Shown here: in pieces, positions 5,511 to 53,258 of the stretch
Layout: each line of letters opens with the position of its first letter
Position numbering within the stretch: position 1 is the first letter of the stretch
Translations under genes and position numbers: made by a program
The notes under the pieces: model-generated
What the model was told of the DNA's origin: nothing
The model's database searches: none
What the model saw: only the letters and a program-made list of their open reading frames with translations
Sequence record: LC788705.1
Strand: one strand, 5' to 3'
DNA: 64,000 nt
From: Escherichia coli phage NG_A1

Positions 5511-6122
5511 ATGGTAACTAAAACAGTAATTCCTACGGATATTACAAAACTTAAAAATGAGTCACTTAACAAGAATAATAACTTAAGTGACTTAGCAGAC
5601 CGTGCAGCAGCATGGCTAAATGTGCGTCCTATTGGGTCCACCCCTCTTGCGGGGGACCCTGTTGGGGACTACGATGCTGCAACCAAACGTTGGGTAGAGA
5701 ATAAGATTAACACTGGTACAGTCGGCCCCACTATGAATGGTGTTATGAACTACGGCGTTGGTGATTTCCACCTTCGAGATAGTCGTGCATATATTCAACC
5801 ATACGAAGTCGTTTCTGACGGACAGCTTCTTAATAGGGCTGACTGGCCTGAACTTTGGGCGTATGCACAAATGGTTGGGGCTATAGATGATTCAGTTTGG
5901 TTAGGAGATAAATTCCAGCGCGGTAAGTACTCATCAGGTAATGGAACAACAACCTTTCGTGTTCCAGATAAGAATGGGGTGCAGGAGGGATCAATACGCG
6001 CTCTTTATGGCCGTGGAGATGGTGGGAATAGTGGTGCAAATGGGCAACTGTTCGAATCCGCTGCGCCTAATATTACAGGTTTTTCACCACATATGCCTCT
6101 CAAACCTATGCCCAGGCATTAG
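5511..6122 (+). CDS. Tail fibre protein, N-terminal part with phage tail-collar domain (frame continues in -1 frame)
   Basis: Collar-domain signature (SDGQLLNRADWPELWAY...TTFRVPDKNGVQEGSIRALYGRGDGG); stops at TAG 6120-6122 while the -1 frame is open from 6071 to 7240. Confidence 0.55.
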   Translation: MVTKTVIPTDITKLKNESLNKNNNLSDLADRAAAWLNVRPIGSTPLAGDPVGDYDAATKRWVENKINTGTVGPTMNGVMNYGVGDFHLRDSRAYIQPYEVVSDGQLLNRADWPELWAYAQMVGAIDDSVWLGDKFQRGKYSSGNGTTTFRVPDKNGVQEGSIRALYGRGDGGNSGANGQLFESAAPNITGFSPHMPLKPMPRH

Positions 6123-6334: not shown

Positions 6335-7240
6335 GTGGCAGCAAATACATCATGGAGTGTTATTAACGCTGATAAAACAACCCCCGATTCAGGTGTTGTT
6401 GTTTCTGGTGGTAGTGTTAAATCTGAATATAAATCTCCCAGTGCAAGTGTAACAGCGGAACTAAAATCAAGTAAAGTAATTAATGGTGCATGGGGTGTTA
6501 GCTTAACTATAACAGATGATAGAGGGATCCCTGTAAGCATTAAGTATGACAGTAATGGTCAGTTTTCAACATCTCATAGGCCATCTGGAGTCGGTACTGG
6601 GAGTTCCTATACTCATTGCGCTTATCGCGCGCCAGACTGGTGGAATAACACAGCATATAGTGCCTTCGTACCAATTCTTGGAGGTGGTAGCGGTAATTCA
6701 CTAAAGAACTATAGATCTTTTGCTTGTTTTGGACAAATATCTTATCCTGATTCTAGTAATAGTTATCCTAGAGCTGCAATTGCTCAAGTAAGGGATTGGG
6801 CACTACCAGATGGTGAACAAGGTAACGGCAAGAGTATTACCGTGTTTACGTTTATTGATAATTCATTTGACCTTCAATATGGGTACAACGATGGTTCGCT
6901 AAACTATATTTTTTCAAAATCTCCAATTTGTGATGAAAGATTAAAGAAAAATATTGAATCCATTGATACTAATATTGCAATAAGTAATATTAAGCAGATG
7001 TCATATAAATCATACATCTATAAAAATGACGAGAATGAACAGGTGCGCCGTGGTTTTATAGCTCAGGATTTACAGAAAATAGATCCCCAATATGTACGGG
7101 AATATGGAGATCCTGGAAGAGAGAAAACGTTGGCCATTGATGAAAACGTTATGTTGCTTGATTCAGTTGCTGCGGTTAAGTGGCTTATTAATAAAGTTGA
7201 GGAGTTGCAAGAAGAAATAAATGTATTGAAAGCTAAGTAA
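6335..7240 (+). CDS. Tail fibre C-terminal part with intramolecular chaperone / autoproteolytic (S74-like) domain; reading frame open from 6071
   Basis: C-terminus DERLKKNIESI...GFIAQDLQKIDPQYV matches the intramolecular chaperone domain of phage fibres; coding-like conserved sequence upstream of first ATG. Confidence 0.55.
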   Translation: MAANTSWSVINADKTTPDSGVVVSGGSVKSEYKSPSASVTAELKSSKVINGAWGVSLTITDDRGIPVSIKYDSNGQFSTSHRPSGVGTGSSYTHCAYRAPDWWNNTAYSAFVPILGGGSGNSLKNYRSFACFGQISYPDSSNSYPRAAIAQVRDWALPDGEQGNGKSITVFTFIDNSFDLQYGYNDGSLNYIFSKSPICDERLKKNIESIDTNIAISNIKQMSYKSYIYKNDENEQVRRGFIAQDLQKIDPQYVREYGDPGREKTLAIDENVMLLDSVAAVKWLINKVEELQEEINVLKAK

Positions 7241-47551: not shown

Positions 47552-48001
47552 ATGAAGACAGCTTTGCTTTTAGTAGCTGCCCTTACCTTCAGCTTTAGTA
47601 GTCAGGCATCGCACGATGCAAAAGAAATAGATTGCATTGCTAAAAATATCTATTTCGAAAGTCGTGGTGAGGGCATAAAGGGAATGACGGCGATTGCACA
47701 TGTTACTAAAAACCGTGTAAACTCCGGTAAATTCCCAGATTCCTACTGTAAAGTAGTATATCAGTCTAACCAGTTCTCTTGGGTATCTAAGAGACCAAAA
47801 GTTGATAAAACTGATGAGGCTTGGCAAACCGCCAAGAATTTAGCTAGAGTGATATACTACGTTGATTTACCACAAGATCCTACACATGGAGCTTTATACT
47901 TCCATAGTGGTAAAGATAAACCATACTGGACAAAGAAGTTTAAGAAAACAACTAAGATTAAGGGACATACATTTTATAAGCCTGTTGTCACTAAAACTTA
48001 A
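47552..48001 (+). CDS. Secreted cell-wall hydrolase, SleB/CwlJ-like
   Basis: Signal peptide (MKTALLLVAALTFSFSSQA), Hydrolase_2-like core (NIYFESRGEG...TKNRV...FHS); AGGAG RBS. Confidence 0.65.
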   Translation: MKTALLLVAALTFSFSSQASHDAKEIDCIAKNIYFESRGEGIKGMTAIAHVTKNRVNSGKFPDSYCKVVYQSNQFSWVSKRPKVDKTDEAWQTAKNLARVIYYVDLPQDPTHGALYFHSGKDKPYWTKKFKKTTKIKGHTFYKPVVTKT

Positions 48002-48240: not shown

Positions 48241-48683
48241 TGGAAGAGGATATTTTAGATGTTTTGCGTAGAGCTTTGCAGGATTCTAAGTTTAATGGTT
48301 CTGATAAAGAAGTCGCTAAAAGCTATCAGACCATAATCGGGGATCTTCAGCGTATTAATAAAGATTTCATCACTTCTGAACAATTTGTGTCTTATCTCAA
48401 AGCTCAACTAAAAAGCATTAACCAGATGAAAGCTAAACTTCATGGTCAAGATCTTGATAGTTATAGCTTGCAGTCCGCTCAGTATGAATACATTCTAAAT
48501 AAGTGGTTGCAGGAGTATCTGCCCTCTCAGTTATCTGATACTGAGATTCGTAAATACTTTGCAGAATTAGTTAAGCTAAACCCTGGAATTACAAAAGGTA
48601 TGCTGATGAAAGCGATCAAGGAAGAATTTCCTGGGCGTTATGATGGTGGTACTGCTGCTCAGATTGCTGGCGAATTTAATTAA
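48240..48683 (+). CDS. Hypothetical protein
   Basis: 147-aa ORF. Confidence 0.5.
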   Translation: MEEDILDVLRRALQDSKFNGSDKEVAKSYQTIIGDLQRINKDFITSEQFVSYLKAQLKSINQMKAKLHGQDLDSYSLQSAQYEYILNKWLQEYLPSQLSDTEIRKYFAELVKLNPGITKGMLMKAIKEEFPGRYDGGTAAQIAGEFN

Positions 48684-48691
48684 AAATTTAT

Positions 48692-48720
48692 TTGCTAAAT
48701 GCTTATAAATTCTGTATAAT
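48692..48720 (+). promoter_or_regulatory. Early promoter heading the tRNA/structured-RNA island
   Basis: TTGCTA-N17-TATAAT; no ORF for about 1 kb downstream. Confidence 0.65.
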
Positions 48721-49732
48721 ATATTCATAAATTAGAGAACAGCGAGCCGATTACGCTGAACTTGTCTTAATGTAAGATGCGTCGAGCACTAAGATTCGTT
48801 GAATAGAGTCGGTGGGTTAGTTGTAAAACTAGTACACAGGGGGCGGCAATCCCGGTTAGTGGCTAGAACGTGTAAAATGAGGCGTCTGAAACCTCTCCCC
48901 TAAACTCTTCTCTAATTTATAAATAGTGGGGTGTGGAAATCACTTATGTAGTAACACTGCCGTCCTAGTATAATTGGTATTATCAAGCCGTAACTGGTGG
49001 AAGATGTAGGTTCGAATCCTACGGTCGGTAAGAACTGGATAACTGATGCTTTTAATGTAAAAGCTTCCGAGGTTAGTTGCGCACTGCCTAAACCACGCGG
49101 TAGTTGGTTCCAGACTAACCAACCAGTCTGCTGAATAGTTTTATTACGATTTAACTATGTCCAGGCTAAAGAAGAACTTTAGAAGGTATTCTAGGATAGT
49201 GAAGTTCTTTCTCCATATCGGAGTAGTTTTTCAAGCTATCCACAAAGTGGGAAATGCTGACATGAGAGATGTCACTAATGGTGCACAATAGCACAGGTAA
49301 TTCGCGATAACTCCTGTTGAGTAGCAGCAAAAGGTGGGAAGTCATGACCCCAAGCCTAACCGAGTCCTCAATATACCGCAGGACATAACTACTAAGTCAC
49401 CCTGACTTAAACTGGAAAATAATAGACGTTACTGTATTTTGTCTTGAAATACTTAATGAGTGAGACTTATGACTCTCCCGGTATCGTCTGTATTTTTAAG
49501 AGTTTTTACGAGAGTTCTTAAAAATACTTAAACGGGGTGTAGTCTAAGGGAGAGGCAGGAGTCTTCTAAATTCCTTTATGCAGGTTCGAATCCCTTGTCA
49601 CGCACCAAATTTGATGGTCAGAGTAAATTAAACCTACTATCTCGGTTGAGCTGTTTTAATGGGTTCGAATCCCAGCGAGGCGTAACTGCCTGGTGTGATA
49701 GAGGCATCATTCCACTAACATTGGAAAAACTA

Positions 49733-49963
49733 ATGAAACGAAAATTAAAAAAGTCTTATATAATTAAGATAAATAAGCTACGAAGTAGGGCAAAAGGATG
49801 GCCACTTCGAATATTAATTGCGGATAACCATACTAGATACCATGCGGAACAACGTCATTACAAACAGTGGGAGTCATACTGCCGCTCAAAAGCAGGTCGT
49901 TTAGATGGATCTTATGAGTTTCTATTTGGTAAAAAGCCTACTAGAGTAGCTTTAGGTAATTAA
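49733..49963 (+). CDS. Hypothetical small basic protein inside tRNA island
   Basis: 76 aa from internal ATG of the 49595 ORF; weak RBS; the upstream part of that ORF overlaps tRNA-like motifs. Confidence 0.3.
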   Translation: MKRKLKKSYIIKINKLRSRAKGWPLRILIADNHTRYHAEQRHYKQWESYCRSKAGRLDGSYEFLFGKKPTRVALGN

Positions 49964-49968
49964 TACTT

Positions 49969-50059
49969 GGAAGAGCAAATCGAATTGGCGACGAAAACCG
50001 CTTGGAAAGTGGCTGACTGGTAAAACGGCTTGAGAGTTCAAATCTCTCCTCTTCCGCCA
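49969..50059 (+). tRNA. tRNA-Ser(GGA)-like, type II, CCA encoded
   Basis: 7-bp acceptor GGAAGAG/CTCTTCC, T-arm GAGAG-TTCAAAT-CTCTC, discriminator G + CCA, anticodon loop TTGGAAA; D-arm atypical (4-nt linker). Confidence 0.5.
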
Positions 50060-50071
50060 AACAATTTATAT

Positions 50072-50166
50072 GGTAGGTCAATCCAACGGCTGGCGCTGGA
50101 CTCCGACTTGAAATCGGTTGATCGTAGTGATACGGTGTAAGGGTTCGATCCCCTTACCTACCTCCA
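50072..50166 (+). tRNA. tRNA-Ser(TGA), type II, CCA encoded
   Basis: Acceptor GGTAGGT/ACCTACC, anticodon stem-loop CCGA-CTTGAAA-TCGG, variable arm CGTA-GTGA-TACG, T-arm AAGGG-TTCGATC-CCCTT. Confidence 0.6.
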
Positions 50167-50171
50167 AATCT

Positions 50172-50302
50172 TGGAATATGCCGGAATTGGTAGACGGGAC
50201 TGCCGAATAGGTTTACTAGGAACATCCACTCCTAGAAATATACCTTAAAAGCGGTTGAGTTAAATGGTCTAACTCATGAAGGTTCAAGCCCTTCTATTCC
50301 TT
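50172..50302 (+). ncRNA. Oversized tRNA-like element (131 nt) with Leu-type D-arm and canonical T-arm
   Basis: 5' TGGAATA-TG-CCG-GAATTGGTAGA-CGG; 3' GAAGG-TTCAAGC-CCTTC + TATTCCT pairing the 5' end; internal arms do not fit a cloverleaf. Confidence 0.4.
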
Positions 50303-50531
50303 GATACATCAATGGCTCAAAGTGTAACGGTGCTATTTGATGCTCTTGGAAAGACTTTCCCGACATGCGTTCGGGGGTAAGCTTCTGAGGCTAGAATAGA
50401 AGAGTTTCTGAGAGCCGCCACAATTGAAAATTCGTACTCGTCTTGAGCTGCATGCAATAGGAGATAACTTGATTAGTATTCTAGAACATGCTAATTGAGG
50501 ATGGTTTCGCTAACCCTGCGAGTTTTCAATT

Positions 50532-50605
50532 GTGGCTATATCATAATTGGTTAATGATCCTGATTGTGAATCAGGCCTATGTGGATTCGAATTCCACTAG
50601 CCACC
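50532..50605 (+). tRNA. tRNA-His(GTG)
   Basis: Acceptor GTGGCTA/TAGCCAC, D-arm TCAT-AATTGGTTA-ATGA, anticodon arm CCTGA-TTGTGAA-TCAGG, T-arm GTGGA-TTCGAAT-TCCAC. Confidence 0.85.
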
Positions 50606-50634
50606 CCCAAATTAACTTAAATAGGAAATAAAAT

Positions 50635-50829
50635 ATGGCTGATTTCTGCAAACAATGCTCCATTGATATGTGGGGCAGAGATACTGGTGATCTTTCTGGG
50701 CTGATTACAGAAGCCGAAGTCAAAGAAGGTTATGGTGCAGTTGTGGTTTGTGAAGGATGCGGAGTCATTCGAGTAGATCATGAGGGTAAGCGCCTTGAAG
50801 AACCTGAGCCAGTTACCCTATTTCCCTAA
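50635..50829 (+). CDS. Small zinc-ribbon protein
   Basis: 64 aa with CxxC...CxxC (CKQC...CEGC); AGGAAATAAAAT RBS. Confidence 0.45.
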   Translation: MADFCKQCSIDMWGRDTGDLSGLITEAEVKEGYGAVVVCEGCGVIRVDHEGKRLEEPEPVTLFP

Positions 50830-50842
50830 AGTAAAGAATTAT

Positions 50843-50918
50843 TGGGATGTAGATCAATTGGCAGATCGTCGGCCTCTGACTCCGAAGGTTCCACGTTCGA
50901 TCCGTGGCATCCCAGCCA
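50843..50918 (+). tRNA. tRNA-Gln(CTG), CCA encoded
   Basis: U1-A72 acceptor TGGGATG/CATCCCA, D-arm GATC-AATTGGCA-GATC, anticodon loop CTCTGAC, T-arm CCACG-TTCGATC-CGTGG. Confidence 0.75.
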
Positions 50919-50924
50919 AATACT

Positions 50925-51000
50925 TGGAGAGTAGTGTAACGGTTAGCACAACGGCCTTTGACTCCGTTAATGGTAGGTTCGATTCCTCCTTCTCCAGCCA
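50925..51000 (+). tRNA. tRNA-Gln(TTG), CCA encoded
   Basis: Acceptor TGGAGAG/TTCTCCA, anticodon loop CTTTGAC; near-duplicate architecture of the preceding tRNA-Gln. Confidence 0.7.
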
Positions 51001-51007
51001 AATTAAT

Positions 51008-51082
51008 GCGTGATTAGTTCAGTGGCTAGAATAACTGGCTTCCAACCAGTAGACACGAGTTCGACTCTCGTATCCCGCACCA
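51008..51082 (+). tRNA. tRNA-Gly(TCC), CCA encoded
   Basis: Anticodon arm ACTGG-CTTCCAA-CCAGT, T-arm ACGAG-TTCGACT-CTCGT, acceptor with one mismatch. Confidence 0.8.
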
Positions 51083-51096
51083 AATAAGGAAACACT

Positions 51097-51348
51097 ATGC
51101 ACGTTTTTGAGTTTCGTAATAAAAGTACTGATAAGCGAGTTATCATTATTGGAGAAACATATCGAGCATATGAACAAACTGATGGCTCTGTTATCTTGAA
51201 TGATGAGAAAGGAGGTTTTAGCTTTTATCCAGAAGAACCTTATGAAGAGTTTCGAAAACAATTTAACCTAGACTGGAGAAAGCATTTAAACACTGTTGCT
51301 TCATCTGTAGTATTGCCAACTACCAGTACTGTACTCTCTAATGGCTGA
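51097..51348 (+). CDS. Hypothetical small protein
   Basis: 83-aa ORF with AAGGAAAC RBS directly after the tRNA-Gly gene. Confidence 0.45.
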   Translation: MHVFEFRNKSTDKRVIIIGETYRAYEQTDGSVILNDEKGGFSFYPEEPYEEFRKQFNLDWRKHLNTVASSVVLPTTSTVLSNG

Positions 51349-51505
51349 CAACCTAAAAGTAAAGATTGATAAACAAAAGAAACGTGTAGAAGTAGAGATT
51401 GGTGAAGAACGTGTTGCCTTTACTTTTGAATTTCTACAGCAAATGGCAATGGCAGTTATGACTGATAAGTCTCCTGTTATTGAAAAAGAAATCCCGTTGA
51501 AATAA
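51341..51505 (+). CDS. Hypothetical small protein (54 aa)
   Basis: Translationally coupled ATG overlapping upstream stop; below ORF-track cut-off. Confidence 0.35.
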   Translation: MADNLKVKIDKQKKRVEVEIGEERVAFTFEFLQQMAMAVMTDKSPVIEKEIPLK

Positions 51506-51515
51506 CGGGATCATC

Positions 51516-51590
51516 GCTCCTAAAGCATTGCTGGCGATGCAGTTGCCTTGTAAGCATCTGAACCGGGTTCGATTCCTGGTGGGAGCACCA
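51516..51590 (+). tRNA. tRNA-Thr(TGT), CCA encoded
   Basis: Acceptor GCTCCTA/TGGGAGC, D-arm GCAT-TGCTGGCG-ATGC, anticodon loop CTTGTAA, T-arm CCGGG-TTCGATT-CCTGG. Confidence 0.65.
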
Positions 51591-51605
51591 AATTTAAAAA
51601 TTCAT

Positions 51606-51634
51606 TTGCCTTCTCTCTTATTTATTGTTATAAT
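51606..51634 (+). promoter_or_regulatory. Early promoter
   Basis: TTGCCT-N17-TATAAT. Confidence 0.6.
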
Positions 51635-51664
51635 ATTTATATAAATTAATGAGAGGGAAACCAA

Positions 51665-51955
51665 ATGAAACGTTATCTTTCTATTGTATTCCAAACTGGT
51701 GGTCAAAGATATACCTATGAATTTCCATCTTCTTGGAAAATCAAAGAAGGTGATCAAGTAGTAGTGTTAACACCGCGTGAAGGGTATAAAGTAGTAATGG
51801 TTAAACAAGTATTCCCAAAAGATCATGAACCAGCTAAAGGCATTCGCTATAAGATGATTCATGGTGTGGTCCGTCAAGTACCACGAACTGAGGTAGAAGT
51901 AGATAAGACTGGAGAAACTAAATTCCATTATACTTCTTACTTAGATAGTGTGTGA
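51665..51955 (+). CDS. Hypothetical protein
   Basis: 96-aa ORF with GAGAGGGAAA RBS. Confidence 0.5.
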   Translation: MKRYLSIVFQTGGQRYTYEFPSSWKIKEGDQVVVLTPREGYKVVMVKQVFPKDHEPAKGIRYKMIHGVVRQVPRTEVEVDKTGETKFHYTSYLDSV

Positions 51956-51970
51956 TGTAAATATTCTAAT

Positions 51971-52047
51971 ACTTCGGTAGCTTAGCGATCTAAAGCACCC
52001 GGCTGATAACCGAGAGATCGGGGGTTTAAATCCCTCCCGGAGTACCA
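51971..52047 (+). tRNA. tRNA-Ile(GAT), CCA encoded
   Basis: Acceptor ACTTCGG/CCGGAGT, anticodon loop CTGATAA, atypical T-loop TTTAAAT. Confidence 0.55.
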
Positions 52048-52143
52048 AATTTAGGAATTAAGACTATGCGTCCAGGAAAGTTTAAAAAAGCTAATTGGTC
52101 TAAAGAGTATAAAGAATACTTACTTAGTCTAGTAAAACATAAC

Positions 52144-52219
52144 AGTTAGTTGGCAGAGTGGTTATGCACCTCCTTCATACGGAGCGACTACAGTGGTTCA
52201 AATCCACTACTAACTACCA
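52144..52219 (+). tRNA. tRNA-Met(CAT), CCA encoded (initiator/elongator/Ile2 not resolved)
   Basis: Acceptor AGTTAGT/ACTAACT, D-arm GCA-GAGTGGTTA-TGC, anticodon loop TTCATAC, T-arm AGTGG-TTCAAAT-CCACT. Confidence 0.75.
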
Positions 52220-52256
52220 TTAAAAGAGCTAGAGATAGCTAAATTTAGGAGCAGCT

Positions 52257-52451
52257 ATGTTAACAATTAAAATAATGTCAGCCAAGAATGGTGAACATAT
52301 CCATACAGGCAAAAGTGTAAGCTTTAATCCTAGAAATAAAAGATTGGCTATAGTTGGAGTAGACCAAGCCATCTTTTTAAAAGAAGATGAAGTAGCATAT
52401 GTCATGAACCAAACTGGTAAGACAGTTTCCGTATACTATGGAAAAGTATAA
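52257..52451 (+). CDS. Hypothetical small protein
   Basis: 64-aa ORF with TAGGAG RBS. Confidence 0.45.
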   Translation: MLTIKIMSAKNGEHIHTGKSVSFNPRNKRLAIVGVDQAIFLKEDEVAYVMNQTGKTVSVYYGKV

Positions 52452-52493
52452 AGAATAAATAGCTGAGCCAAATTCTAACATCGGGGAGATCTA

Positions 52494-52862
52494 ATGAAAG
52501 CATATCAAAGTCTTAAATCTGGCGTAATTAACCTTGTTCATGAAAATCAGATTATTCAGCTATACTCCGACAACGGTGAACTTAAACAGAAAGTTCTAGT
52601 TGAAGATCTAGAAGGTATCACACCACAATTCGATCCCGAAGCCTTCCGTGAAGTCAAAGTGGAAGTCGCCCCTCAAATCGAAGGTGGTCAGCACCTAAAT
52701 GTCAATGTGTTAAGCCGTGATCAGCTTTTGGATGTGCAGAAACATCCTGAAAAATATCCTCAGTTGACCATCCGTGTCTCTGGCTACGCTGTTCGATTTA
52801 ACGCACTGACTCGTGAACAACAGAACGACGTTATTAGTCGTACATTTACTCAGGCGATGTAA
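52494..52862 (+). CDS. Hypothetical protein
   Basis: 122-aa ORF with GGGGAG RBS. Confidence 0.5.
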
Positions 52863-52943
52863 TGGGGTTTGGATACGATTTCTCCCAGCTACGCAAGGTA
52901 GTCGAGCAAACTCCGTTTATCTCCCAAGTTTTAGGAGAAATGG

Positions 52944-53258
52944 GTGGATCGAGCATTAAGACGCCATCACCGGCAACGTGTGAAGAACAACCGCAAGAAG
53001 TATTGGACAGTCTTTCCACATGAAGAAAGCCCTAAGCGGTTAGGTATTATCACTACTACTCCTTGCATCTGTTCTTGCTGGATGTGTGGGAACCCTCGCA
53101 AATATTATAAGAATAGTAAAGCAGGTATGAAAACCTCGGAGATTAGGAAAATGGAAGCAATGATTACGGATATTTCAAATGATGAATTTGATGGCTTTGT
53201 AGGATTCGGAGAAGGAATTAGCTCAGGCTGTTTCGAAGATGTACGCCCCGATTTGTAA
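52944..53258 (+). CDS. Basic Cys-rich small protein
   Basis: GTG start 6 nt after AGGAG; Arg/Lys-rich N-terminus and CICSCWMC cluster. Confidence 0.4.
   Translation: MDRALRRHHRQRVKNNRKKYWTVFPHEESPKRLGIITTTPCICSCWMCGNPRKYYKNSKAGMKTSEIRKMEAMITDISNDEFDGFVGFGEGISSGCFEDVRPDL

What the first reader, a model, noticed from the sequence alone, without database searches (positions are those of the whole stretch)
50414..50540. 12-nt perfect inverted repeat pairing the 5' end of tRNA-His with a site about 100 nt upstream
CACAATTGAAAA (about 50421-50432) is the exact complement of TTTTCAATTGTG (about 50522-50533), which runs into the tRNA-His acceptor stem. A long-range helix could sequester the tRNA 5' end in the precursor; the intervening 85 nt is ORF-free.
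Basis: seen in the sequence. Interest (0 to 1): 0.4.

Follow-up and report, generated by a model that had tools for sequence, protein, structure and literature searches.

The report
Closing helix of phage T5 RNA III
The inverted repeat is real, but it is the closing helix of an already annotated small stable RNA of phage T5 (RNA III) that sits just upstream of tRNA-His; it forms a conserved 20-base-pair stalk that most likely serves as a cutting site to separate the neighbouring RNAs.

Summary
The window is a T5-like phage (99.8% identical to vB_Eco_mar004NP2). The repeat exists and is longer than reported: 14 perfect pairs inside a 20-bp helix, 50417-50436 with 50517-50536. The 5' arm begins with the G-CCA 3' end of T5 'RNA I' (50314-50420). 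The 3' arm ends in nucleotides 1-5 of tRNA-His. The enclosed 106 nt (50425-50530) are 99% identical to rnaIII, which the T5 GenBank records annotate as a 'stable RNA with unknown functions'.

Across nine versions of this locus, from several Demerecviridae lineages, the interior ranges from a bare hairpin to about 120 nt and is often unrelated in sequence. The helix stays 19-21 bp throughout. Fourteen of 22 tested pairs show compensatory changes, and G.U pairs place the structure in the + strand RNA.

The annotated RNA III ends fall at CAAU|UG on both arms and leave 2-nt 3' overhangs. That is RNase III geometry, and T5 RNA2H shows it too. Folding predicts that in the uncut precursor the stalk beats the tRNA-His acceptor stem by about 9.5 kcal/mol.

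Verdict: a known gene and a real RNA helix. It is most likely an RNase III-type processing stalk; this is inferred and was not tested. Interest is low to moderate.

The parts
50314..50420 (+). RNA I gene (107 nt, tRNA-like ends, 3' ...GAGCC-G-CCA). Its last 4 nt, G50417 to A50420, are the outermost bases of the 5' arm of the stalk. Its own terminal stem (50314-50318 with 50412-50416) abuts the stalk directly.
   Evidence: Mapped from the AY692264 annotation through alignment A1. It is 98.1% identical to T5 rnaI. AY543070 calls it 'stable RNA with unknown functions'. The terminal stem appears in the folds.
50417..50436 (+). 5' arm of the 20-bp stalk (GCCACAAUUGAAAAUUCGUA).
   Evidence: pair probabilities 0.76-1.0; covariation.
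50421..50424 (+). 4-nt spacer CAAU between the annotated RNA I 3' end and the RNA III 5' end. The inferred 5'-strand cut lies after U50424 (CAAU|UG).
   Evidence: There is a gap between the two misc_RNA features in AY692264 and AY543070. The geometry is worked out.
50425..50530 (+). RNA III gene (106 nt): a 12-bp terminal stem with a 2-nt 3' overhang, enclosing a multi-hairpin interior.
   Evidence: 99.06% identical to T5 rnaIII, with 1 mismatch. Folds. No Rfam family matches at E <= 1.
50517..50536 (+). 3' arm of the 20-bp stalk (UGCGAGUUUUCAAUUGUGGC). The inferred 3'-strand cut lies after U50530 (CAAU|UG).
50531..50608 (+). tRNA-His(GUG). The T5 records annotate it from U-1. G1 to C5 (50532-50536) pair with the 5' arm in the precursor.
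   Evidence: ARAGORN 50532-50607; Rfam tRNA 59.9 bits; T5 annotation starts at U-1; position -1 is T in all 46 loci examined.
50170..50313 (+). RNA1 gene (144 nt, tRNA-like), the upstream member of the same run of stable RNA genes. Listed for context only.
   Evidence: 95.1% identical to T5 rna1. AY543070 calls it 'tRNA-like stable RNA with unknown functions'.

Best explanation
The inverted repeat is the closing helix of the phage T5 RNA III gene. RNA1, RNA I, RNA III and tRNA-His are transcribed as one precursor. In that precursor the 3' end of RNA I (G-CCA) plus the next 16 nt pair with the last 15 nt before tRNA-His plus tRNA nucleotides 1-5. This gives a 20-bp double-stranded stalk that stacks on the RNA I terminal stem. 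I infer that a double-strand-specific endonuclease, most likely host RNase III, cuts both strands inside the palindrome, at CAAU|UG on each arm (50424|50425 and 50530|50531).

That cut would have three products. The first is RNA III, carrying a 12-bp terminal stem and a 2-nt 3' overhang, which would explain why it is stable. The second is RNA I with a 4-nt trailer that exonucleases trim back to CCA. The third is the freed 5' end of tRNA-His, which can then form its acceptor stem.

Shown here: the identity of the gene, the helix, its conservation and covariation, and the predicted competition with the acceptor stem. Inferred: the enzyme, the order of events, and any function of free RNA III.
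For: Identity. The window is a T5-like phage. 50425-50530 is 99% identical to annotated T5 rnaIII, and 50314-50420 is 98% identical to rnaI.

Helix. The fold gives 20 bp with z = -6.2. In nine locus versions (types A-I, from Tequintavirus, Epseptimavirus, unclassified Markadamsvirinae, Hongcheonvirus and Sugarlandvirus) the closing helix is always 19-21 bp. The interior ranges from a 4-nt loop to about 120 nt and is mostly unrelated in sequence.

Covariation. On the 12-sequence arm alignment, columns 1-20 pair and columns 21-22 do not. Fourteen of 22 pairs change on both sides. The score is 0.468 against 0.184 +/- 0.024, with 0 of 500 shuffles as high, and the slid registers collapse to about 0.06. 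Recurrent U.G pairs place the structure in the + strand RNA.

Cut geometry. The annotated RNA III 5' end, 50425, pairs with 50528, and the 3' end is 50530, so the overhang is 2 nt on the 3' side. Both cuts fall at CAAU|UG, symmetric about the dyad of the CAAUUG palindrome. T5 RNA2H also lies in a stalk of about 20 bp with a 2-nt 3' overhang, and rnaIV in a stalk of about 23 bp with a 1-nt overhang. A double cut in a stem that leaves 2-nt 3' overhangs is the established E. coli RNase III pattern (PMC6212723). RNase III is reported to take part in T4 tRNA maturation (PMC4810235).

Same transcript. No + strand promoter-like site was found between 49500 and 51200. The T5 record annotates none between P13b and tRNA-His.

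Need for cleavage. In the uncut precursor the stalk has pair probability of about 1 and the tRNA-His acceptor stem about 0, with a difference of 9.5 kcal/mol.

Interior dispensable. Salmonella phage S124 keeps only a hairpin of about 19 bp at this position.
Against: No experiment on RNase III is available. The end positions come from GenBank annotation, and I could not read their experimental basis (literature searches found no primary paper). The two pairs between the proposed cuts are A-U and U-A, whereas in vivo E. coli RNase III sites usually have at least one G-C pair there. The published position scoring matrix was not available. RNase P alone could make the RNA III 3' end and the tRNA 5' end. 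T5 rnaIV gives a 1-nt overhang rather than 2 nt. Columns 3, 4, 6, 9 and 11 of the helix never vary, so they say nothing either way. The thermodynamic model ignores tRNA tertiary structure and co-transcriptional folding. Interiors of types B, E, G, H and I share conserved motifs, so RNA III may have a function of its own in addition.
Confidence: 0.6

Rival explanations
1. The helix is simply the protective terminal stem of a functional small RNA (RNA III). RNase P makes the 3' end while maturing tRNA-His, and another nuclease makes the 5' end. Under this reading, the outer pairing with the tRNA and with the RNA I CCA end has no role in processing.
For: The T5 records call RNA III a stable RNA. 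Interiors of types B, E, G, H and I share a CUAAC motif and an invariant GGAGGNCUGAUCANCC hairpin across distant Demerecviridae, together with a covarying inner helix. This points to selection on the RNA itself. The covariation is densest in columns 12-20, which belong to mature RNA III.
Against: The interior is replaced by unrelated sequence in types A, C and D, and is lost in S124 (type F), while the stalk persists. Total helix length, including the 8 outer pairs that are not part of mature RNA III, is held at 19-21 bp with a sharp inner boundary. Outer pairs also covary (columns 1, 5, 7, 8, 10). Erwinia phage KEY keeps the outer pairing without an RNA I CCA end. The symmetric 2-nt staggered ends are not expected from RNase P acting with an unrelated nuclease.
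Confidence: 0.22
2. One reading: the helix mainly sequesters the tRNA-His 5' end, in order to delay or regulate tRNA-His maturation, and is not itself cleaved.
For: The stalk is predicted to outcompete the acceptor stem by 9.5 kcal/mol. The pair involving tRNA nucleotide 5 covaries as G:C, A:U and G.U.
Against: Annotated mature ends lie inside the helix on both strands. In IME260 only tRNA nucleotides 1-2 are in the helix, and in three phages the outermost pair is A.C. The helix is anchored on the RNA I end rather than on the tRNA. No regulatory input is evident.
Confidence: 0.1
3. A DNA-level feature: the invariant CCACAATTGA / TCAATTGTGG ends are terminal inverted repeats, or recombination or endonuclease sites, that mobilise or swap the interior cassette.
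For: The interior behaves like an exchangeable cassette between invariant palindromic ends. T5 carries HNH homing endonucleases within its tRNA region.
Against: Recurrent G.U pairs would be A.C mismatches on the other strand, and compensatory changes preserve RNA pairing. The window has no further copies of the end motif beyond chance: 5 matches against 4.9 expected, and only the two arms match exactly. The ends themselves change in a compensatory way in S124, DU_PP_V and IME260.
Confidence: 0.05

Closest known systems
Phage T5 / BF23 rnaIII (misc_RNA 'RNAIII, stable RNA with unknown functions' in AY543070, AY692264 and AJ604530)
   Same: It occupies the same position, between rnaI and tRNA-His. 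It is 106 nt long, with 105 of 106 bases identical, and has the same flanks.
   Different: Nothing material differs; this is the same gene. The records give no structure, no processing pathway and no function. Rfam has no family for it.
RNase III processing stalks of bacterial rRNA operons (long-range helices flanking 16S and 23S rRNA)
   Same: A long-range helix forms from sequences flanking an embedded stable RNA in a polycistronic precursor that also carries tRNAs. Both strands are cut with a stagger. (PMC6212723 and PMC4810235; the rest is established knowledge.)
   Different: This stalk is only 20 bp. It encloses a 106-nt RNA of unknown function. Its outer ends are the mature ends of two other RNAs, a CCA terminus and a tRNA 5' end. 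Dependence on RNase III has not been tested.
Phage T4 tRNA cluster with its stable RNAs (species 1 and 2, rnaC and rnaD) and RNase III involvement in T4 tRNA maturation
   Same: A phage tRNA cluster co-encodes small stable RNAs of unknown function, and host RNase III is implicated in precursor processing (PMC4810235; details of the T4 RNAs are from my own knowledge).
   Different: No sequence relationship was tested or expected. I know of no description of the T4 RNAs as interchangeable cassettes inside a conserved stalk.
Phage T7 early-region RNase III hairpins (R1.1 and others)
   Same: A phage-encoded dsRNA element of about 20 bp separates the functional units of a polycistronic transcript (my own knowledge).
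   Different: The T7 sites are local hairpins with internal loops, are usually cut on one strand, and lie between mRNAs. Here the helix is long-range and nearly perfect, both strands appear to be cut, and the excised piece accumulates.

Membership tests
T5 rnaIII gene (Demerecviridae RNA III locus) | Sequence identity to annotated T5 rnaIII | tested here: met
   99.06% identity over 106 of 106 nt; alignment A1.
T5 rnaIII gene (Demerecviridae RNA III locus) | Synteny: rna1 - rnaI - 4-nt gap - rnaIII - tRNA-His | tested here: met
   Mapped as 50170-50313, 50314-50420, 50425-50530 and 50531-50608.
T5 rnaIII gene (Demerecviridae RNA III locus) | Accumulates as a stable RNA of about 106 nt in infected cells | not testable with these tools
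   Only the database note 'stable RNA with unknown functions' is available.
E. coli RNase III double-cleavage substrate | Intramolecular dsRNA stem of about two helical turns (about 20-22 bp) | tested here: met
   A 20-bp helix in the window. It is 19-21 bp in nine locus versions, with covariation and a sharp inner boundary.
E. coli RNase III double-cleavage substrate | Cuts on both strands that leave 2-nt 3' overhangs | tested here: inconclusive
   The annotated ends 50425 and 50530 give exactly this geometry, as do those of T5 RNA2H. The ends come from database annotation and were not mapped here.
E. coli RNase III double-cleavage substrate | The two pairs between the cuts are paired and usually include a G-C or C-G pair (PMC6212723) | tested here: inconclusive
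   Both positions are paired, but as A-U and U-A, with no G-C. The rule is stated as 'usually', and DU_PP_V has G-C at that position.
E. coli RNase III double-cleavage substrate | Cleavage depends on rnc in vivo, or on purified RNase III in vitro | not testable with these tools
   Needs an experiment.
Any curated Rfam family | Covariance-model match at or near the gathering score | tested here: not met
   Nothing matched in 50314-50531 at E <= 1. Only the tRNA genes matched, plus a 21.6-bit tRNA-like hit inside RNA1.
tRNA / tRNA-like (for RNA III itself) | Cloverleaf recognised by ARAGORN or by the Rfam tRNA model | tested here: not met
   No call inside 50425-50530.
Intrinsic terminator / attenuator | G+C-rich hairpin followed by a U tract, found more often than chance | tested here: not met
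   One weak 5-bp match at 50506-50522. The region holds 2 such sites against 1.6 expected. The U tract is paired within the stalk.
Miniature inverted-repeat mobile element | Multiple copies bounded by the same terminal inverted repeats | tested here: not met
   CCACAATTGA occurs exactly only at the two arms. With 1 mismatch there are 5 matches against 4.9 expected.

The most novel reading that the evidence does not exclude
The stalk is an obligatory RNase III site with two unusual consequences. First, it sets the 5' end of this tRNA-His at U-1. The extra 5' nucleotide that histidine tRNAs need would then be supplied by an RNase III cut rather than by the special RNase P cleavage that leaves G-1. 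Position -1 is T in all 46 related loci, and C73 cannot pair with it. Second, the helix is a conserved 'socket' into which unrelated RNA III interiors have been swapped repeatedly, possibly under diversifying selection, for example as decoys in phage-host conflicts over tRNAs.
Probability: 0.15. Interest if true: 0.55.

Novelty: already known. Interest (0 to 1): 0.3.

Why it matters
T5 tRNAs are currently of interest as counter-measures to host nucleases that target tRNAs. The stable RNAs interleaved with them have been labelled 'unknown functions' for decades. This analysis gives RNA III, and by the same geometry T5 RNA2H and perhaps RNA IV, a concrete and testable origin: excision from a conserved 20-bp double-stranded stalk. 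It also predicts that tRNA-His maturation depends on that cut, since the stalk otherwise locks up the acceptor strand. The comparison further shows that the stalk is the universally conserved part and the RNA inside it is not. This is a modest refinement of a known locus and does not define a new kind of element.

Tried and rejected
- Rfam scan of 48500-53000 at E <= 1: no family for RNA I or RNA III.
A 20-mer scan gave 26 true loci but only types A, C and D, with no new type. A metagenome scan gave 13 loci, again with no new type.
- Literature searches for the primary T5 RNA I / RNA III papers, and for T5 with RNase III, found nothing usable in the library. What I recall of the 1980s papers is therefore not used as evidence.
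- I wanted to score the stalk with the published E. coli RNase III position matrix, but the supplement is not held.
- Rejected readings: a terminator or attenuator, and an internal promoter; a multi-copy mobile element; coding sequence.
- Pairwise comparison of interiors: only types B and E share significant sequence (p about 0.003), so the interiors cannot be treated as one alignable family. A five-member subfamily (B, E, G, H, I) does align.
- The first fold_alignment attempt used guessed coordinates and one junk sequence. Only its outer helix is meaningful.
- Other long inverted repeats in the window were looked at as possible parallels. I7 (47750-47863) lies inside the endolysin gene. The 5' arm of I3 (48722-48925) lies upstream of the position where T5 annotates the RNAX promoter. 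Neither is claimed as a stalk.

Full report
**What the window is.** Megablast of 49400-52400 finds T5-like phages (Demerecviridae, Tequintavirus). The best matches are 99.8% identical, for example Escherichia phage vB_Eco_mar004NP2. The finding lies in the tRNA gene region. ARAGORN and Rfam place tRNA-His(GUG) at 50532-50607 and 50532-50605.

**The observation.** The two 12-mers exist and are exact complements, shifted 1-2 nt from the stated positions: 50419-50430 and 50523-50534. The repeat is longer than reported.
- The perfect run is 14 nt.
- The repeat finder reports 18 nt at 94% complementarity.
- The minimum-energy fold of 50415-50538 has 20 consecutive pairs, 50417-50436 with 50517-50536, closing a multi-hairpin interior. 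The energy is -46.8 kcal/mol against -25.8 +/- 3.4 for shuffles (z = -6.2).

A perfect 12-mer repeat is not by itself remarkable. The window has 7 with loops of 3-150 nt, against 0.87 expected. The case for the helix rests on comparison with relatives.

**What is annotated there.** GenBank records of T5 annotate three misc_RNA genes directly upstream of tRNA-His: rna1 (144 nt), rnaI (107 nt) and rnaIII (106 nt). AY692264 and AY543070 carry all three, and BF23 (AJ604530) was seen to carry rna1 and rnaI. rnaIII abuts the tRNA, and 4 nt separate rnaI from rnaIII. AY543070 describes rnaI and rnaIII as 'stable RNA with unknown functions'. Aligning T5 to the window maps them as follows:
- RNA1 at 50170-50313
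- RNA I at 50314-50420
- RNA III at 50425-50530
- tRNA-His, annotated from U-1, at 50531-50608

Identities to T5 are 95.1%, 98.1%, 99.06% and 100%. So the 'ORF-free 85 nt' is a known gene. The 5' arm of the helix starts with the discriminator G and the CCA of RNA I. The inner 12 pairs are the terminal stem of mature RNA III. The outer 5 pairs use tRNA-His nucleotides 1-5. Rfam has no family for RNA I or RNA III.

**Comparative anatomy.** The stretch upstream of tRNA-His matches in 484 phage records. Reading representatives shows that the segment between the RNA I 3' end and tRNA-His comes in very different versions.

| Type | Representative phages | Full length including the helix arms |
|---|---|---|
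| A | T5, this window | 120 nt |
| B | SE3, bux | 135 nt |
| C | Eps7, S113 | 77 nt |
| D | Klebsiella 150049, LVR16A | 147 nt |
| E | Enterobacter KKP_3711 | 158 nt |
| F | Salmonella S124 | 42 nt, a bare hairpin |
| G | Pectobacterium DU_PP_V (Mccorquodalevirinae) | 131 nt |
| H | Erwinia KEY | 147 nt |
| I | Klebsiella IME260 (Sugarlandvirus) | 159 nt |

Most interiors share no detectable sequence similarity; only B and E do (p about 0.003). Types B, E, G, H and I do share a CUAAC motif, an invariant GGAGGNCUGAUCANCC hairpin and a covarying inner helix. Every version closes with a helix of 19-21 bp.

**Covariation.**
- On 12 distinct arm pairs, columns 1-20 pair and columns 21-22 do not.
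- 89.8% of all cells form a standard pair.
- 14 of 22 pairs change on both sides.
- The covariation score is 0.468 against 0.184 +/- 0.024, with 0 of 500 shuffles as high. Sliding the register by 1-3 columns drops the score to 0.05-0.09.
- An earlier 8-sequence test gave the same picture.
- Recurrent U.G pairs, for example at column 15, show that the structure is selected in the + strand RNA and not in DNA.
- The outer, nearly invariant part covaries too: G-C to A-U at column 10 in S124; U-A to G-C at column 8 in DU_PP_V; columns 5 and 7 in IME260.
- The outermost pair, which involves tRNA nucleotide 5, is G:C in most phages, A:U in KEY, G.U in DU_PP_V and A.C (broken) in three phages.
- KEY keeps the pairing although nothing resembling RNA I or a CCA end precedes the 5' arm.
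- In IME260 the helix keeps its register relative to the RNA I end, and only tRNA nucleotides 1-2 are inside it.

**Mechanism.** The annotated RNA III 5' end, 50425, pairs with 50528, and the annotated 3' end is 50530. That leaves a 2-nt 3' overhang. The two implied cuts are CAAU|UG on the 5' arm and CAAU|UG on the 3' arm. Each lies one nucleotide 3' of the dyad of the paired CAAUUG palindrome. This is the geometry expected from a dimeric double-strand-specific nuclease, and it is the established E. coli RNase III pattern (PMC6212723).

Two other T5 stable RNAs behave similarly. RNA2H sits in a stalk of about 20 bp with a 2-nt 3' overhang and two G-C pairs between the cuts. RNA IV sits in a stalk of about 23 bp with a 1-nt overhang. 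RNA2H is not adjacent to a tRNA, so its ends were not simply set by a neighbouring feature.

The RNA I terminal stem (50314-50318 with 50412-50416) abuts the stalk. This gives a possible coaxial stack of about 25 bp, with 13 bp on one side of the cut and 12 bp on the other (the stacking is inferred). No promoter-like site lies between the arms, and T5 annotates none between P13b and tRNA-His. Both arms should therefore be on one transcript.

In the modelled uncut precursor the stalk pairs have probability 0.76-1.0, the acceptor stem of tRNA-His has probability about 0, and enforcing the acceptor stem costs 9.5 kcal/mol. The simplest reading is a processing stalk. One staggered cut releases RNA III with a stable 12-bp end, leaves RNA I with a CAAU trailer to be trimmed to CCA, and frees the tRNA-His 5' strand. 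RNase III has been implicated in T4 tRNA maturation (PMC4810235).

**Caveats.**
- The enzyme is inferred.
- The ends come from annotation, and I could not check their experimental basis. No primary paper was found.
- The two pairs between the cuts are A-U and U-A, while E. coli sites usually include a G-C pair there.
- RNase P could make one of the two ends.
- The folding model ignores tertiary structure and kinetics.

**Rivals.** Three alternatives were weighed.
- *A functional RNA III whose helix only protects it.* The conserved B/E/G/H/I interior supports this. It does not explain the fixed total helix length, the covariation in outer pairs, the survival of the stalk without any interior in S124, or the 2-nt stagger. 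The two readings are not exclusive.
- *Regulatory sequestration of the tRNA 5' end without cleavage.* This conflicts with mature ends lying inside the helix, and with IME260.
- *A DNA-level repeat (mobile cassette or endonuclease site).* This conflicts with the G.U pairs and with the absence of other copies.

**Novelty and verdict.** The element is the already annotated T5 rnaIII gene together with its flanks, so it is already known. Two points may add to the record: the 20-bp stalk is the universally conserved feature across Demerecviridae while the enclosed RNA is exchangeable, and the annotated ends fit RNase III geometry. Interest is 0.3.

**Side observations.**
- The window's 'tRNA-Arg(tct)' is a chimera that marks a deletion of about 7 kb in the tRNA region.
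- ARAGORN missed two tRNA-Ser genes.
- The tRNA-His gene carries one extra C at its 3' end.
- Position -1 of tRNA-His is U and not G in all relatives examined.

Noticed in passing
window 49532-49607 (junction near 49583-49600): The gene ARAGORN calls tRNA-Arg(tct) is a chimera. Its 5' two-thirds are identical to T5 tRNA-Arg. Its last ~20 nt are the 3' end of the tRNA-Leu(UAG) of vB_Eco_mar004NP2. The join lies in the shared T-loop sequence GGTTCGAATCC, and the acceptor stem no longer pairs (Rfam gives only 21.2 bits). In relatives such as EH4 about 7 kb separate the two halves. The window phage therefore carries a deletion in the tRNA region and lacks T5 RNA2H, RNA IV, rna2 and several tRNAs.
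   Followed up: yes
window 49969-50059 and 50072-50162: Two class II tRNA-Ser genes, with anticodons GGA and UGA and both ending in CCA, fold as cloverleaves with long variable arms. They correspond in order and anticodon to the two tRNA-Ser genes (GGA, UGA) that T5 annotates upstream of this RNA run. ARAGORN missed both, and Rfam scored the second only as tRNA-Sec at 38 bits, below threshold.
   Followed up: partly
window 50598-50609: The tRNA-His gene ends TAGCCACCCCCA, with five C, in the window and in mar004NP2. The other 44 related loci have four C (TAGCCACCCCA). The CCA end is therefore not encoded in register here. This is either a real 1-nt insertion or a homopolymer sequencing error.
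   Followed up: partly
window 50531: The base before G1 of tRNA-His is T, not the G-1 typical of bacterial tRNA-His genes, in all 46 T5-like loci examined. The discriminator is C. The T5 records annotate the tRNA from this U.
   Followed up: partly
window 50170-50313: RNA1, described in the T5 annotation as a 'tRNA-like stable RNA', has a canonical T arm (GAAGGTTCAAGCCCTTC) and acceptor-like ends. Its central arm is extended, and it scores only 21.6 bits on the tRNA model. It looks like a degenerate or insert-bearing class II tRNA.
   Followed up: no
L003 (T5 AY692264) 5812-5983 and 6842-6944, minus strand: T5 RNA2H and RNA IV, both absent from this window, are also enclosed by stalks of about 20-23 bp that extend beyond the annotated ends. 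The annotated ends give a 2-nt (RNA2H) or 1-nt (RNA IV) 3' overhang.
   Followed up: partly
window 48722-48742 / 48905-48925 and 49490-49527: A 21-nt, 90% complementary long-range inverted repeat lies in non-coding DNA upstream of a tRNA-like gene (48959-49030). A perfect 12-bp hairpin lies just upstream of the chimeric tRNA. Both fall in or near the region that T5 annotates as the 719-nt 'RNAX, stable RNA with unknown functions'. The 5' arm of the first repeat seems to lie upstream of the annotated RNAX promoter.
   Followed up: partly
L005, L009, L168, L170, L171 (RNA III interiors of types B, E, G, H, I): These interiors carry an invariant hairpin, GGAGGNCUGAUCANCC. Its 7-nt loop contains the self-complementary UGAUCA, which at the DNA level holds a GATC site. 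The hairpin is conserved across Demerecviridae lineages but absent from the T5/window version.
   Followed up: no
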